Shown here: positions 4,974 to 60,611 of the stretch, in pieces
Layout: the number at the start of each line of letters is the position of its first letter
Position numbering within the stretch: the stretch's first letter is position 1
Source of the DNA: Eledone cirrhosa
Lineage: Eukaryota
Direction: 5' to 3'
NCBI GenBank assembly: GCA_964016885.1
Contig: OZ024757.1
Coordinates: 37,944,001-38,008,000, forward strand
DNA: 64,000 nucleotides
Made by a program: the position numbers and the translations under genes
Notes under the pieces: generated by a model
Told to the model about the DNA's origin: nothing
Databases searched by the model: none
The model's input: only the letters and a program-made list of their open reading frames with translations

Positions 4974-5820
4974 TTTTCTCTTTCTCTTAATTTCGAGTAT
5001 ATTTTTTTGACCGGCCACCTTCCTGGTGGCAAGGTTGTAAAAGAAAAGAAATTGTCATCCCTTGAATCGCAAGAATGTTTTGCAAATTTTGAAGGTGCCA
5101 GCTATCGCAGCCATTTGTAGACTATGAATTAGGGAGCTGCGCTTTTTGTCCGCAAATCCAAGTTCAGTCATACTTTGGTCCAAGCGGGTTGGTATATAAC
5201 CCGTAGCACCAATAATGATGGGTATGAAGCTAAAGGTGTATCTTGGATACTGGATTTGTAAACTCCTCATCAATGGTCCGTAGATGTCCTCCTTCTCCTG
5301 TATTTTTCTGACAACGTTTACATCAAGTGGGCAGCTGATCTCCACAACAGAACACGTTTTCAATGTGTGGTCCCAAACTACAATATCAGGCCGGTTGTGC
5401 TTTAATTTGGTGGCAGTTTTTATTTTCAGGTTCCACCAGTATTCCTTAGTGCCATCTGTCTCAATATATTCTTCCTCGTTTGTTGTTAATTTTGTTTTCC
5501 GAAGTGCGTTCCAGATGGTTCTAGCTATCCCATCGTGTCTCATGGGGAGGTAGTAGCGAGATGACATTCTTTCGCAGCTGGCAACAATGTGGCTTACATC
5601 CTCGATCTTTGTTTTACATAGCCTACTTTTATTGTCAGCTGCTGGCCCTCCTCTTTTGTGCAGCAGATATTTGGTAGGGAGTTCTTGTTCCTGTATTGCA
5701 TAGAGATATCCCTCAAGGTGTGATGTCATAAACTTGTCGGAACTCCATGCCAGGCTTTTTGAGTGGTTTATCCCCTCTATGGTCTGTGTTTTATGCCTCA
5801 AGTATCCATGCACAACTTTG
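4974..5820 (-). mobile_element. 5'-truncated R4/Dong-like non-LTR retrotransposon inserted in (TA)n
   Basis: An open frame ending at 5055 plus a 3' UTR of about 80 bp; TA arrays on both sides. Confidence 0.85.
5055..5813 (-). pseudogene. C-terminal part of a LINE ORF: CCHC zinc knuckle plus restriction-like endonuclease (PD-(D/E)xK)
   Basis: KVVHGYL, EGYLYAIQEQ, SRLC...EDVSHIVASC (first Cys changed to Ser), RHD, WWN, HNRPDIVVWD, VVEISCP, K...Y, FIPIIIGATG. No reverse transcriptase core is present. Confidence 0.88.
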
Positions 5821-6203
5821 TATATATATATATGTATGTCTGTATATATATATGTATGTATATATATATATATGTATGTAATATAAGATCAAAAGATGGT
5901 TAAAGGAGTTCCATGTATTTTATTATGCGCATTTCAAAAACAAACATCATCATGCAATAATATTTGTGTTTTCATCAGATAAAACAGGAGAACATGATAT
6001 GAAGGCTAAAAAACACTTGTGGATAGTGCAGTTTTAAATCAATATATGTATGTATATATATATGTATGTATATATATACGTATGTATATATATATATATG
6101 TATGTATATATATATATGTATGTATATATATATATATATATATGTATGTATATATATATATATATGTATGTATATACATATCTTTATATGTATGTATATA
6201 TAT

Positions 6204-6606
6204 GATGACCCCTTAGCCTTTGTCAAGGCAGAATTCTAGGAGAAGGAAAACTCTGATATAACACATGCAATTCCGATGGTATCCAATGATGTTGACTTGT
6301 TCTTCTTTTTGGTAAATATCATCTTGGTTAAGAGAGTGGGACTGGCTTTGTGCAGTGCCTTTGCTCACTATAAAAGCTTCACAGCACAGGCATTGCTTTA
6401 TATCTGGAGATCTCCCTGCACTTGTCATCACATGGTACCATGGGCTCAGCACTATGTGTCAATAATTGTCACAAGTGTAGTGTTTGTACCAGAGTTTTCA
6501 AGTCACTGGCTGGACTAAAAAGTCACACTCGTTCAGCGCATCGGTAGGAGTTCTCCTACTCGGATATAAAGTAGTGGCCGTACTCGAAAACGAGTTGGCA
6601 GCCACC
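6204..6606 (+). mobile_element. RTE-derived retroposon copy
   Basis: Highly similar to 9778-10180 with the same 3' end. Confidence 0.85.
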
Positions 6607-9710: not shown

Positions 9711-10180
9711 AAAAACAAAATCTATCAAAGGGCAAAGGAGCTCTTCAGAGTCAATGGCCATCCAAAATCACCGAGAGAGATGACCCCTTAGCCTTTGTCA
9801 AGGCAGAATTCTAGGAGAAGGAAAACTCTGATATAACACCTGCAACCCTGATGGTATCCAATGATGTTGACTTGTTCTTCCTTTTGGTAAATATCATCTT
9901 GGTTAAGAGAGTGGGACTGGCTTTGTGCAGTGCCTTTGCTCACTATAAAAGCTTCACGGCACAGGCATTGCTTTATATCTGGAGATCTCTCTGCACTTGT
10001 CGTCACATGTACCATGGGCCCAGCACTATGTGTCAATAATTGTCACAAGTGTAGTGTTTGTACCAGAGTTTTCAAGTCGCTGGCTGGACTAAAAAGTCAC
10101 ACTCGTTCAGCGCATCGGTAAGGGTCCTCCTACATGGATATAAAGTAGTGGCCGTACTCGAAAACGAGTTGGCAGCCACC
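9711..10180 (+). mobile_element. Longest copy of a short non-autonomous RTE-derived retroposon
   Basis: RTE 5' UTR-like motif CTAGGAGAAGGAAAACTCTGA; 3' part encodes CSVCTRVFKSLAGLKSHTRSAHR-stop (10050-10121); terminal stem-loop GTGGC..CTCG-AAAA-CGAG..GCCAC followed by (AT)n. Confidence 0.8.
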
Positions 10181-10934: not shown

Positions 10935-12740
<1,806 letters not shown>

Positions 12741-12902
12741 GAAAGTTTTATTTAAATTGTTGGGTTAACAACGAGTAAATATTTATAACTGATATAAAAG
12801 CACTCAACTGTCCATAATATTTTTACTGCCAAATCAACTTCCCAAATGCAAGTCGATTGAAAGGTATGTCGTATCTATTTATTTATAAGACTGTTTATAT
12901 TG

Positions 12903-12968
12903 TATTTTGTCTGAAGAAGGCATAACATATTGTTAATATGATATCCCTGAAATATATATAATGAAATA
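12903..12968 (+). ncRNA. Minimal type I hammerhead motif, family H2
   Basis: TATTTTGT-CTGAAGA-AGG...CCT-GAAA-TATATAT-A-ATGAAATA. Stem I has 8 pairs including two G-U; followed by the family tail AAATATGGTTTTATAAATATAGTTTCCATTTATTTAATATCAT and then TA repeats. Confidence 0.72.
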
Positions 12969-13095
12969 AATATGGTTTTATAAATATAGTTTCCATTTAT
13001 TTAATATCATATACATATATATATATACATATATATATATATAGAAAGGATGAATATAAAATGAAAGCCCATTATTGATAACCTGAAATTTTATA

Positions 13096-13178
<83 letters not shown>

Positions 13179-13179
13179 T

Positions 13180-13233
<54 letters not shown>

Positions 13234-13346
13234 CATATATATATACATATATATATACATATATATATACATATATATATACATATATATATACATATAT
13301 ATATATACATATATATATACATATATATATATACATATATATATAC

Positions 13347-13383
<37 letters not shown>

Positions 13384-13453
13384 CATATATATATATATAC
13401 ATATATGTATACATATATATATATATACATATATATATACATATATATATATG

Positions 13454-13501
<48 letters not shown>

Positions 13502-13507
<6 letters not shown>

Positions 13508-13741
13508 ATGTTGAAAAGGTAGCACACCAGAGAGAGATATACAGTGCGCTATCAATAAATGGTTATAGATTCCATACACTGGTGTTTTTTTCCCTGTTTT
13601 ATTGATAGCGCACTGTATATCTCTCTCTGGTGTGTTACCTTTTCAACATATTGTATTTTAAAGAGCTTGGTATTTCTTCTCCTTTGAGCACATTATTTAC
13701 AGGGAATGGCGAGGGCCTATGGCTCCGTTAAATTATCGTGG
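13502..13741 (+). mobile_element. 5'-truncated family H1 copy with an inverted duplicated segment at its 5' end
   Basis: 13502-13559 is the near-perfect reverse complement of 13598-13655; 13561-13741 matches 26585-26765 (minus); TA repeats flank both sides. Confidence 0.75.
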
Positions 13742-13759
13742 TATAAATATATATATATA

Positions 13760-13798
<39 letters not shown>

Positions 13799-13799
13799 T

Positions 13800-13835
<36 letters not shown>

Positions 13836-13875
13836 CATTCATATATATATATACATATATATATATATACATATT

Positions 13876-13907
<32 letters not shown>

Positions 13908-14048
13908 CATTCATATATATATATATACATACATATATATATATATATATATACATATATATACATATATATACATACATACACACACACGCATACATAT
14001 ATATATACACACATACATACATATATATATACACACACATACACACAC

Positions 14049-14083
<35 letters not shown>

Positions 14084-14687
14084 TATATGTGTGTGTGACT
14101 GTGTGAGTGTGTAAGTGTACAACCATATAACCACTTCAAGGAATTGCAATTAGGTAGACGAGAATCTGCGAAATAATTTCCCCCAAGACACCATTGCTAT
14201 TAGTTACTAAACGTACATCGATTTACTGCGACATATAATTTTATCTTGAATTTAAGACTCAAGGATGTTGCTAATGATTTAGCATCTGTTAGTCACGAGG
14301 TTTGGTCGAATTTATTACATCCGAAAGCAATTGCTTTCATAATCAATATTCGATCTTTTCCCAAAGTATATGTAATCTTCATATTCATGAAAAATTTCGA
14401 CAATTTTTTGAAGTCTCCTTAAAATCAGTCTTTAGAAAATGCTGAGTTGCTACATCAGCTATGTGTGATAAAATATCTTGTTTGTTGTTTCTTTTGGAAT
14501 ACCAAGCACAAATATCAATAATGCGTTGACAAATAGTTTTATTCATTTATAAGTCAGTTAAACTATGTTACACCATAGTCTATCTTACGTAGATATTGCA
14601 AACATAGAAGTCGTAAGAAATATGTGAACTGTAAGTATGTCAAATGTATTTCTCTCCTAAATATAGATTTTAAAGTATACCCTTTTC

Positions 14688-14894
14688 TTTAAATCCATCA
14701 ACCAATGACCTCCACACATCCCAAACACAACCCTATCCTACCACTAGAAAAGGTATAAATACTACCATATTACTTCGAGAGTCGGATTTCTGATGATTTC
14801 TCCCGTAGAAGCCATTTTTGTATTAAATATTTATACACTTCTATGTATTGAGTAACTTACTGTGGTTACCAGCGATTAACCTGGGATAAACTTA
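14688..14894 (+). mobile_element. Family H4 copy, hammerhead with an internal deletion of about 21 nt
   Basis: Intact CTGATGA at 14790 followed by TTTCTCCC|GTAGAAGCC. Upstream sequence is homologous to 31689-31800; the 3' end is homologous to 28580-28640. Confidence 0.6.
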
Positions 14895-14902
14895 TATGTT
14901 TA

Positions 14903-14909
<7 letters not shown>

Positions 14910-14935
<26 letters not shown>

Positions 14936-15511
14936 TTATATATTTATATATATATATTTATATTTATATATATATATATTTATATATATATATTTATATA
15001 TATATATTTATATATATATATTTATATATATATATTTATATATATATATTTATATATTTATATTTATATATTTATATATATATATATGTATATATATATA
15101 TGTATATATATATATTATATATATATATGTATATATATATATGTATATATATATATTTATATATATATATATTTATATATATATATTTATATATATATAT
15201 TTATATATATATATATTTATATATATATATATTTATATATATATATATTTATATATATATTTATATATTTATATATATATATTTATATATATTTATTTAT
15301 ATATATATATATATTTATTTATATATATATTTATTTATATATATATATATATTTATTTATATATATATATTTATTTATATATATATATATATTTATTTAT
15401 ATATATATATTTATTTATATATATATATATATTTATTTATATATATATATATATTTATTTATATATATATATTTATTTATATATATATATATATTTATTT
15501 ATATATATATT

Positions 15512-15583
<72 letters not shown>

Positions 15584-15585
15584 GA
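14910..15585. repeat. (TA)n array with TTT interruptions
   Basis: Direct reading. Confidence 0.95.
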
Positions 15586-16257
15586 TATGGATATATTAAC
15601 CCGCGTGTATTAAATATATTACTCTTAATTTGGCCAGAGATTTACATTCCCAAATGTCTTTTAAGGCGTAACTTTCCGTATTTGTTACAGTTGTGAGATA
15701 TTGTTCGTTATTCAGGTATCACTTCCCTGTTTTTAGCCTAAGAAAATATCTATATGCGTGTGTAATTAATACACGCATACATTTATTTTTAAAAAATTAA
15801 TTGAGTTCTTAACACGAAGGATGGATAATGTTTTTGAAAAAACTAATTAACCCACGTGTATATTATTTTTTTTTTCTCGTGACTCGTGATTGTCTCCCTT
15901 TCCCGCTTCATGACGCTATGATACTTCCTCAGTCAAAGGATTGCTGGAATTTCAAATTTGGCGGTCATTCGATGCGTGAAGGGACAAATTAGCAGACACG
16001 AAAATTAACTGCGGTAAGAAATTGTTCTTATATCAAAGTTTAATGGGCTTCCACTGACGATTTATAAGTGCCCACCTAATTGTATTCTTACATGAACATA
16101 TATTAGGCTTCTACATAAACTGGAAATATTCTCCCAACTTGTAGAATACTTATAATGAAACAATTGTTCGGAAAGAGAGATCTATTTTAATTTTAATTAT
16201 AACTCATAAAATAATACAACTGGCTTTCCACAAAATACATATAGTTGGCACCCCAGA

Positions 16258-19413
<3,156 letters not shown>

Positions 19414-26432: not shown

Positions 26433-26526
26433 ATATATACATATACATATATATATACATACATATATATGCATACATATATAGACATACATTTATATAT
26501 ATACACATATATATACATATATACAG

Positions 26527-26584
<58 letters not shown>

Positions 26585-26587
<3 letters not shown>

Positions 26588-27015
26588 CGATAAATTAACG
26601 GAAGCATAGGCCGTCGTTATTCCCTGTAAATAATGTGCTCAAAGGGGAAGAGATCCTGAGCCCTTTTAAATATAATATGTTGAGAAGGTAACACACCAGA
26701 CAGAGATATATAGTGTGTTATCAATAATACAGGGAAAAAACCACCAGTGTATGGAATCTATAACCTATGAAAGGCAGACTATAGACACGATAATTAAAAA
26801 TATAAATTAAAGCGTAAATAAATACCTCTATAACTATATAACACACGTACAAATCCAAAGATATGTTTCACCAAAAAATGTGTTGAAAGAAATGGTCTAG
26901 TCTCGGTTCATCAGCGTGTGTAATACATTTCAGACAACACTAAGAGAATTTTACAATTGACTGTCCAGCTACACGTGGGAGAGAGAAGTCACAGCATGTT
27001 TAAGGGCAGTGAACC
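26585..27015 (-). mobile_element. (TA)n-flanked hammerhead-bearing element (Penelope-like pseudo-LTR remnant), family H1
   Basis: Bounded by TA repeats on both sides and contains the hammerhead at 26841-26921. Segment 26585-26765 is the reverse complement of 13561-13741. Confidence 0.7.
26841..26921 (-). ncRNA. Type I hammerhead ribozyme motif, intact core
   Basis: Minus strand reads ACACACG-CTGATGA-ACCGA...TTGGT-GAAA-CATATC-tttg-GATTTGT-A-CGTGTGT. Stem I is 7 bp and perfect, stem II is ACCGA/TTGGT, stem III has 6 of 7 pairs, and the cleavage triplet is GUA. Confidence 0.85.
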
Positions 27016-27511
27016 ATATATATATATATTCATGTGTCCTCTATTATTTCAACTGTGTTAATATGTCTGCAACTAGTTAGCGTCTCATATAAAATCTTAA
27101 AAGGAAAATAAAAAATACAAAAGATACTATAAAATTAAAGAATGAAATTCAGAATTCGGAAGACATTTTGTCTTGTTATTTTCTTATACTGCGATGTATT
27201 ATGGACTATTACATAATATTTTTCATAAACTTCCTAAATAACTACGCTTGCAACAGGCAACAACACAACAAACAAACGGTACTAAGCAATAAGAAAAACG
27301 AACTTATAAGCGAAAATATTCACATGTGAAAAAGTATACAATACATACAATACATACGTAAAATATATTCACCTTTCTTATTTAACCATACAAGCGAAAG
27401 ATAGAGGAGGCATTTTTTATTTTATATTCGTGATTTTACGAAGCATTGTTGTACCTGATAGTATTACTGTTGTTCTAATCAATTGTTTGCCCTATTTTAC
27501 AGTGGTTTGTT

Positions 27512-32596: not shown

Positions 32597-34500
<1,904 letters not shown>

Positions 34501-34966
34501 TTTGTATATAAAGCCTATGTGTGTGTTCAATTATAACGCATGTCAGCTTTTGTCATGATGTCATATTAGGCGTTTCAATTGACAAAATCAAGAACAATAG
34601 CCTGATCCAATATAAAGTGTGAGTGGAAGATTAAGAGATTGAGTCAGTCAAAAGCTATGGTGGTTGTTCTTGAATGCAGATCGATGTATAAGCCTCGGCT
34701 TCTGTTTGAGTTTTATAGTTGGCTCTTCTAAATAGCACATTATATCATCATTGTGACACATGTGTACTGTTTACTAGACACATTATAATATCGTTTTGTG
34801 AGAGAATAGCCATCTTAAGTGGAAGAATGCATCTAGCAGAGATTGAGGTATTATATCAGAGTATATACACACACACCACACACACACACACACACGCATA
34901 TATATAAATATCTATCTATCTATTTATTATATATATCTTTATACATTAATATATATATATATATAT

Positions 34967-35019
<53 letters not shown>

Positions 35020-35068
35020 TATATATATATATACTAAATATATATATATACTAAATATATATATATAT

Positions 35069-35111
<43 letters not shown>

Positions 35112-35181
35112 TATGTATATACATATATATATATGCATATATATATATGCATATATATATATATATATACATATATATATC

Positions 35182-35213
<32 letters not shown>

Positions 35214-35229
35214 TATATCTATATCTATA

Positions 35230-35289
<60 letters not shown>

Positions 35290-35296
35290 TATATCT

Positions 35297-35330
<34 letters not shown>

Positions 35331-35443
35331 ATATACATATATTTTTTCCCATTCTTTGCCAGCGAACGTCACCATGAACCAAAGTATCGTCTTCCTGTCT
35401 TCCTCCGGTTGCAACGTTTTTTGAAATATCCAGTTCTGCGTTT

Positions 35444-35519
35444 ACAGATTGACTTTGTTAGTTTCAGAAGATCCCGTTAAGGGTGAAAGCGGCGATTCTT
35501 TGCTTAAACTTTAATCTGT
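35444..35519 (+). ncRNA. Type I hammerhead motif with CUGA>CAGA change, family H3
   Basis: AGTTT-CAGAAGA-T-CCC-gttaa-GGG-T-GAAA-GCGG...TTGCT-T-AAACT, with a distal stem I extension ACAGATTGA/TTAATCTGT. Lies in a TA-flanked element at about 35341-35535. Confidence 0.7.
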
Positions 35520-35530
35520 TATTTTAATAA

Positions 35531-36705
<1,175 letters not shown>

Positions 36706-36776
36706 TGGATATAAAGAAATATTGCACGCAATATTAGCAGAATTAGGAAATTAAAGTCAGTTAGAATACAAAATCA

Positions 36777-40597: not shown

Positions 40598-40872
40598 ACA
40601 TAAATACATACATACATAGAGAGGGGAGTAGAGAGAGAGAGAGAGAGACTGTATGTTTGGGTTGGGTAGAAAGTGAATGGATTAATGATTTTTTAAAGTT
40701 TGAAAGCATTCGTTGTTACAAAACTTATTTTATTTCGAAAAGAAAGTTGCTTTATATATGGATAATCCCTGGGGTAGTATTTACATTCTGTGTATCTAAC
40801 CACACTGACTGAAATAACATACAGACACACACACACACAAATATGACCGACCCCCAAAGTATAACAATATAT

Positions 40873-40918
<46 letters not shown>

Positions 40919-41049
40919 GTATATAATGTAGAAATGTAATATAAATATATATATATATATATATGATATATATATACACACACACACATATATATATATA
41001 TTTATATATATGTATCTAGAAAGAGCGAGTGTGAGATGGAGTGAGTGAG

Positions 41050-43945
<2,896 letters not shown>

Positions 43946-60319: not shown

Positions 60320-60611
60320 TAAATATCATCTTGGTTAAGAGAGTGGAACTGGCTTTGTGCAGTGCCTTTGCTCACTATAAAAGCTTCACGGCACAGGCAT
60401 TGCTTTATATCTGGTGATCTCTCTGCACTTGTCATCACATGGTACCATGGACCCAGCACTATGTGTCAATAATTGTCCCAAGTGTAGTGTTTGTACCAGA
60501 GTTTTCAAGTCGCTGGCTGGACTAAAAAGTCACACTCGTTCAGCGCATCGCAAGGGGTTCTCCTACATGGATATAAAGTAGTGGCCGTACTCGAAAACGA
60601 GTTGGCAGCCA

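What the first reader, a model, noticed from the sequence alone, without database searches (positions are those of the whole stretch)
26841..26921. Fully intact type I hammerhead, best candidate for an active ribozyme
All core nucleotides are present on the minus strand, with a perfect 7-bp stem I, a 5-bp stem II carrying a long loop of about 28 nt, and a true hairpin stem III. Predicted cleavage is after GUA, between plus-strand positions 26848 and 26847. It could cut any minus-strand transcript that passes through, such as a host intron.
Basis: partly seen in the sequence, partly recalled or inferred. Interest (0 to 1): 0.75.

Follow-up and report, generated by a model that had tools for sequence, protein, structure and literature searches.

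The report
Damaged copy of a hammerhead retrozyme
The self-cutting RNA motif is really there, but it is one shortened, slightly damaged copy of a 541-base non-coding repeat present about two thousand times in this animal genome, likely copied from an RNA circle into TA stretches by a borrowed Penelope-type enzyme, so it is probably not a regulator of a host gene.

Summary
The hammerhead at 26841-26921 (minus strand) is confirmed base by base, and no block shuffle gave one (0 of 200). It is not a stand-alone ribozyme. It sits in a 433-nt, 5'-truncated copy (26584-27016) of a 541-nt non-coding repeat: a 17-nt core pattern matches 2,334 times genome-wide against 103 for the control. The family forms head-to-tail arrays and back-to-back arms in (TA)n. 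Of 216 arms, 193 end at one of two fixed sites 86 nt apart, and all 60 back-to-back pairs with two fixed ends use one of each site. 57 arms exceed one unit. This fits a non-LTR retrozyme moved by a Penelope-like reverse transcriptase; such genes are abundant here, but no partner sharing its sequence was found. 'Fully intact' is overstated. This copy alone carries a 5-nt deletion beside stem I that removes most of the family's distal helix. It also has A-U instead of G-C at 10.1-11.1 and a U-U mismatch in stem III. No host exon was found in the window. Cleavage, expression and RNA circles are untested. New member of a known kind.

The parts
26584..27016 (-). 433-nt, 5'-truncated single copy of a 541-nt non-coding repeat (unit positions 104-541)
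   Evidence: 96-98% identity to the best genomic copies; the tandem unit of 541 nt is read from L018
26841..26921 (-). Type I hammerhead motif; predicted cut between 26848 and 26847 (after GUA)
   Evidence: pair counts
26908..26914 (-). Catalytic core CUGAUGA
26866..26869 (-). Catalytic core GAAA
26922..26924 (-). Site of a private 5-nt deletion that removes most of the 5' strand of the family's distal helix
   Evidence: 1 of 46 rows; 1 exact match genome-wide
26829..26838 (-). Small hairpin with AGUU loop 3' of stem I; candidate partner of loop II; predicted to be sequestered in this copy
   Evidence: U-A to G-C in 7 of 46 rows, one lineage
26898..26902 (-). Loop II segment GACUA (RRYUA in most copies); candidate loop-loop contact, weakly supported
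   Evidence: one-sided changes only
26759..26766 (-). 3' strand of the distal helix, left without most of its partner in this copy
26670..26680 (-). Second fixed end of the family (unit position about 455), internal in this copy
   Evidence: 88 of 216 arms end here
26584..26600 (-). First fixed end of the family (unit position 541), abutting the TA tract
   Evidence: 105 of 216 arms end here
26433..26582 (.). (TA)n microsatellite target at the 3' side
27017..27030 (.). Short (TA)n tract at the truncated 5' side
   Evidence: junction also on a 553-nt contig of run X1

Best explanation
The motif lies in a truncated copy of a 541-nt hammerhead-bearing non-coding repeat (a non-LTR retrozyme), whose tandem copies are likely transcribed, self-cut and closed into RNA circles that a Penelope-like reverse transcriptase likely copies into (TA)n. 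Shown: the repeat family, its tandem and back-to-back arrays, two fixed 3' ends in TA tracts, arms that run through the cut site and past one unit, and the private deletion. Inferred: transcription, cleavage, circles, and the enzyme. The enzyme would nick both strands of a TA tract and start one cDNA at each of the two fixed internal sites. The window copy is a one-armed product with a single hammerhead, so it cannot release a unit-length RNA. It probably cuts slowly at best (my estimate: about 55% for detectable cleavage at 10 mM Mg2+, under 10% for a host function).
For: Copy number: 2,334 matches against 103 for the control. Arrays of 541 nt. In 164 loci, 193 of 216 unique arms end at unit position 541 (105) or about 455 (88), and 171 of these 193 run into TA repeats. 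Of 79 back-to-back pairs, 60 are 541+455 and none is 541+541 or 455+455. 57 arms exceed one unit, 12 cross the cut site twice, and 5' ends do not pile up at the cut (5 of 193 within 4 nt). Repeated stretches within an arm share 273 non-majority letters and differ at 88 family-variable sites (52 arms). The circle folds better than shuffles (z -2.9). Subfamily changes keep stems II and III and the distal helices (92.9% of cells paired, 7 pairs with double changes). The genome holds RT plus GIY-YIG genes; 7 of 18 such ORF ends have a hammerhead core 354-408 nt downstream. Two internal start sites and two-strand extension are shown in vitro for a Penelope-like element (PMC11167929).
Against: No RNA evidence was obtained. 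No autonomous element sharing the unit was found: 41 GIY-YIG loci; protein hits in 7 of 164 element loci, none joined to an arm's 5' end. The hammerhead fold is a minor species in the model even for intact copies (about 0.2%), and RNAalifold did not recover stems II and III. Pair 10.1-11.1 is unpaired (A-C) in 20 of the aligned rows. Only 1 of 9 predicted Xenopus retrozymes cleaved in vitro (preprint). In the Penelope assay, uncut RNA was the main template, so arms crossing the cut site do not prove a circle. Loci were chosen by similarity searches, mostly on one contig, so the sample is biased.
Confidence: 0.78

Rival explanations
1. Same family and same enzyme, but the template is an uncut multimeric transcript of a tandem array; the hammerhead is slow, protein-assisted or vestigial, and circles are not needed.
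For: Hammerhead mutants still inserted and unprocessed RNA was the main substrate in vitro (PMC11167929). No 5' pile-up at the cut site. Some arms are mosaics of different variants (L121, L124, L162), and L018 alternates C/T at one position over five units.
Against: Core and helices are kept across subfamilies down to about 80% identity. Most long arms repeat the same variant (19 of 31 young arms show no difference at a family-variable site). A dimer circle would also give the alternation.
Confidence: 0.3
2. The unit is the pseudo-LTR of an autonomous Penelope-like family, and the copies are its truncated ends.
For: Same layout as local Penelope-like elements: hammerhead, then a fixed end in (TA)n, with inverted arms. 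Retrozymes are reported to derive from such repeats (preprint).
Against: Upstream of position 1 the unit continues into its own position 541, an inversion or TA, and never into an ORF, in the loci mapped. There is no similarity to 41 GIY-YIG loci beyond one separate fragment in TA and weak AT-rich hits.
Confidence: 0.1
3. This copy acts in the host by cutting a minus-strand transcript.
For: All core bases are present and stem I is predicted to form (P 0.5-0.8).
Against: It is a young insertion with a private deletion. No host exon was found in the window. Nothing suggests selection on this copy among some two thousand.
Confidence: 0.06

Closest known systems
Metazoan non-LTR retrozymes (Cervera and de la Pena 2020, PMC7229834; parts 2-4 of 6 read)
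   Same: Non-coding, low-GC tandem repeats with one type I hammerhead per unit; thousands of copies; coexist with Penelope-like elements; the mussel example lacks most of the usual loop-loop bases.
   Different: The unit is 541 nt against about 170-400 nt there. Loop II is 24-28 nt and stem III is a long hairpin. Two fixed ends and TA targeting are not described in the parts read. Circles are shown there and untested here.
Retrozymes as non-autonomous Penelope derivatives (Li, Clavereau, Pollet 2026, bioRxiv 10.64898/2026.07.22.740005; parts 1-3 of 5 read)
   Same: Tandem type I hammerhead repeats with unit lengths of 51-972 bp; monomers treated as likely dead-end offspring; co-occurrence with Penelope-like elements.
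   Different: Their sample is vertebrates, insects and one coral. They find sequence homology to pseudo-LTRs for 24 of 57 Xenopus families matched to known elements; I found none for this family.
Penelope-like element pseudo-LTRs and tail (Craig et al. 2021, PMC8557442, passages; Frangieh et al. 2024, PMC11167929, parts 1-2 of 4)
   Same: 5' truncation, partial tandems, inverted 5' copy, microsatellite target, two internal reverse-transcription start sites.
   Different: No ORF. The two ends are 86 nt apart against a 30-40 bp tail. The ends are used strictly one of each per two-armed insertion, whereas in vitro no strand difference in start site was seen.
Penelope-borne minimal hammerheads (Cervera and de la Pena 2014, PMC4209133; passages)
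   Same: Type I topology in an animal retroelement context.
   Different: Those have a minimal palindromic helix III and a conserved G10.1-C11.1 pair. This one has a 7-step hairpin helix III and A-U or A-C at 10.1-11.1.

Membership tests
Type I hammerhead ribozyme | CUGANGA, GAAA and UH core in order, with stem I open | tested here: met
   GUA occurs in natural hammerheads (PMC1636495 passages)
Type I hammerhead ribozyme | Stems I, II, III form, with covariation | tested here: met
   double changes at 2 stem II pairs; stem III U-U is G-U in 19 of 46 rows; stem I has no double change. RNAalifold did not recover stems II and III
Type I hammerhead ribozyme | G10.1-C11.1 pair (typical, not universal) | tested here: not met
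   A-U in 26 and unpaired (A-C) in 20 of 46 rows
Type I hammerhead ribozyme | [quoted passage not shown] | tested here: inconclusive
   Two candidates, neither with real double changes; the distal region is rearranged in the window copy
Type I hammerhead ribozyme | Mg2+-dependent self-cleavage | not testable with these tools
   needs a bench assay
Type I hammerhead ribozyme | Match to an Rfam hammerhead model | tested here: not met
   no hammerhead match at E up to 10 in 26700-27100
Non-LTR retrozyme | Head-to-tail repeats, one type I hammerhead per unit, dispersed in many copies | tested here: met
   for the family; the window copy itself is a sub-unit monomer
Non-LTR retrozyme | No protein-coding capacity or LTR structure | tested here: met
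   no stop-free frame of 90 aa inside 26584-27016; no joined coding sequence
Non-LTR retrozyme | Expressed as linear and circular unit-length RNA | not testable with these tools
   no RNA holder listed
Penelope-like mobilisation | Fixed 3' ends with a tail, 5' truncation, inverted 5' arm, microsatellite target | tested here: met
Autonomous Penelope-like element | RT plus GIY-YIG ORF attached to the repeat | tested here: not met

The most novel reading that the evidence does not exclude
The insertions record a Penelope-type enzyme dimer working on an RNA circle. Each half primes from one nicked TA strand, one at each of two fixed single-stranded sites 86 nt apart, always one of each, and either half can lap the circle. 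The hammerhead uses a multi-branch extension of stem I, with an AGUU hairpin loop docking on loop II, and the window's natural deletion allele is a ready-made test of that contact.
Probability: 0.35. Interest if true: 0.62.

Novelty: new member of a known kind. Interest (0 to 1): 0.38.

Why it matters
Which enzyme moves animal retrozymes, and whether it copies circles, is still open. This family gives a countable genomic record (two start sites, strict one-of-each pairing, multi-lap arms) that can be tested with the published in vitro Penelope system. I found no paper describing a cephalopod retrozyme or this pairing rule in 8 searches. The library lacks most subscription papers, and I did not see the supplements of PMC8557442 or the preprint, which may list such families.

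Tried and rejected
Rfam scans: only microsatellite-driven microRNA hits among the 150 rows shown for the window and no hammerhead locally. Sequencing runs: no RNA holder listed. The runs laid were contigs of unrecorded kind that behave like genomic DNA; they show the family, the tandem joint and the 5' junction but nothing on expression. Autonomous partner: none in 41 GIY-YIG loci. The 87% hit in L039 is a separate fragment inside a TA tract. The weak antisense hits at unit 296-344 (E 7e-4 at best) are AT-rich and were not relied on. A family search by an accession I recalled failed because it is not in the library. A short distal stem I with the nearby AAGGU was rejected as first scored: that register paired poorly, and the long-range helix fits the subfamily changes better. 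An 11-pair pseudoknot between the 5' flank and loop II is conserved but shows no double change and is broken at one pair in 7 rows: left open. Zinc-finger frames as host exons: rejected, three near-identical repeat copies. A pile-up of 5' ends at the cut site: not seen. Equal 5' breakpoints of paired arms: 14 of 60 within 15 nt, 20 within 30 nt against 10.9 expected (maximum 22 in 5,000 permutations): a modest excess, not a rule. AT microhomology alone does not explain the two ends: the longest AT run (413-419) is hardly used. Earlier notes by sequence and by nearby place: none.

Full report
Observation. A strict descriptor finds this one site in the window and none in 200 block shuffles; a relaxed one finds 3 sites. 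Rfam has no hammerhead match here. The single-sequence fold keeps stem I only, with the hammerhead fold 1.5 kcal/mol higher. Such models omit core and tertiary contacts (general knowledge), so this is weak evidence either way.

Context. The window is microsatellite-rich animal DNA from a 3.0-Gb assembly. That it is octopus-like is my recalled impression and was not tested. A search with the surrounding 361 nt gave 2,059 first-look candidates, and the 40 scored were 96-98% identical. A 17-nt stem I plus core pattern matches 2,334 times with up to 2 mismatches, against 103 for the reversed control. The unit is 541 nt and forms head-to-tail arrays. The window holds unit positions 104-541 between two TA tracts, ending 264 nt 3' of the cut and reaching 169 nt 5' of it.

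Insertion anatomy. I mapped 284 arms in 164 loci and dropped 68 as duplicates or cut by a locus edge. Of the 216 left, 105 end at position 541 and 88 near 455; 171 of these 193 run into TA repeats; 23 end elsewhere. Of 79 back-to-back pairs, 60 are 541+455, 18 have one fixed and one other end, 1 has neither, and none has the same end twice. Independent choice would give about half mixed pairs, so 60 of 60 is far beyond chance (my arithmetic; a few pairs may be duplicated loci). 57 arms exceed one unit and 12 cross the cut site twice. 5' ends do not gather at the cut (5 of 193 within 4 nt). Most junctions overlap by 0-6 nt. Repeated stretches within an arm mostly carry the same variant (273 shared non-majority letters against 88 differences at family-variable sites, 52 arms), with a few mosaics. 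The loci came from similarity searches and largely from contig C1, so these proportions are not genome-wide estimates.

The enzyme. The genome has at least 150 GIY-YIG matches from 10,597 candidates, including long frames with both RT and GIY-YIG domains (3 of 4 scanned). In 7 of 18 ORF ends examined a hammerhead core follows in the same sense, in some with a TA tract soon after, which matches the orientation used here. None of 41 such loci carries this unit, and protein hits in 7 of 164 element loci are not joined to an arm's 5' end. Craig et al. describe partial tandems, inverted 5' copies, a 30-40 bp tail and microsatellite targets (PMC8557442, passages). Frangieh et al. show two internal start sites, extension of both target strands and a predicted dimer, and also that hammerhead cleavage was not needed in vitro (PMC11167929, parts 1-2 of 4). 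The pattern points to a Penelope-like enzyme; the partner is not identified, and a circle is favoured but not proven.

Structure in the family. Across 46 distinct copies of several subfamilies, 92.9% of cells in my 40-pair model are paired, with double changes at 7 pairs (the structure was derived from these sequences, and related copies inflate counts). Stem II pairs 4 and 5 covary. The stem III mismatch is G-U in 19 rows. Pair 10.1-11.1 is A-U in 26 rows and unpaired (A-C) in 20, unlike the G-C reported as highly conserved (PMC4209133). Beyond stem I, the circle fold (z -2.9) places an 8-bp helix between the bases 5' of stem I and a segment about 80 nt downstream; subfamily changes there are one-sided and keep pairing. 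A 3-bp hairpin with an AGUU loop shows U-A to G-C in 7 rows of one lineage, although the energy model prefers a shifted register in the youngest subfamily. Its loop could pair with RRYUA in loop II; this rests on wobble-compatible changes only. A rival 11-pair contact with the 5' flank shows no double change. RNAalifold recovered stem I only. Pseudoknot contacts are common in hammerheads, and shifting them cuts rates by orders of magnitude (PMC3088659, passages).

The window copy. It alone of 46 rows lacks 5 nt just 5' of stem I, and that allele occurs once in the genome; some older copies have other deletions there. The deletion removes 5 of 8 nt of the distal helix. In the model the freed bases pair with the hairpin's 5' strand, and the first loop base drops from 0.9-0.99 to 0.18 unpaired. 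I infer a core-intact but likely slow ribozyme in a dead-end monomer. No host exon was found among 114 low-repeat frames of 55 aa or more; the zinc-finger hits are three copies of a repeat.

Comparison and verdict. The family meets the genomic definition of a non-LTR retrozyme (PMC7229834, parts 2-4 of 6; preprint 10.64898/2026.07.22.740005, parts 1-3 of 5). Expression, circles and cleavage could not be tested, and only 1 of 9 predicted elements cleaved in that preprint. Earlier notes of this scan report the same two-armed pattern in other families; they are unchecked AI notes and not independent support. I had reached the retrozyme reading and seen the two ends before reading them. Novelty: new member of a known kind. 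Interest 0.38: the flagged copy is ordinary, while the strict pairing of the two ends gives a testable clue to how Penelope-type enzymes copy these RNAs.

Noticed in passing
window 5978 (minus) and 12911 (plus): Two other type I hammerheads with long loop II and short palindromic stem III, of the dimer-type kind; a near-identical copy of the 5978 motif also occurs in L065 and L072.
   Followed up: partly
window 1293, 7418, 32306 (plus); 28418, 32142 (minus): Further CUGANGA cores that look like decayed members of other repeat families seen in the GIY-YIG loci.
   Followed up: no
window 5058-5888 (minus): 277-aa frame with a zf-RVT match (E 8e-5); by recall it resembles the restriction-like endonuclease end of a LINE.
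   Followed up: partly
window 6476-6541, 10050-10115, 60483-60548 (plus): Three near-identical copies of a repeat encoding one C2H2 finger; not host exons.
   Followed up: partly
window 10958-19413, 32597-36706, 40867-43927: (TA)n-rich tracts of 3 to 8.5 kb.
   Followed up: no
L114, L116, L119, L120, L142, L144: A subfamily with a 14-nt duplication that lengthens stem III of the hammerhead.
   Followed up: no
L018 419-2480: A five-unit array alternates C/T at unit position 478, as a dimer circle or dimer-wise expansion would give.
   Followed up: partly
L066 near 7986 (plus); L067 near 103 (minus): Another hammerhead family with G-C closed stem II and a long stem III region.
   Followed up: no
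L005, L006 (G000:C3, about 5.2 kb apart): Two copies with nearly the same flanks and the same 5' breakpoint as the window copy; looks like a local duplication.
   Followed up: no
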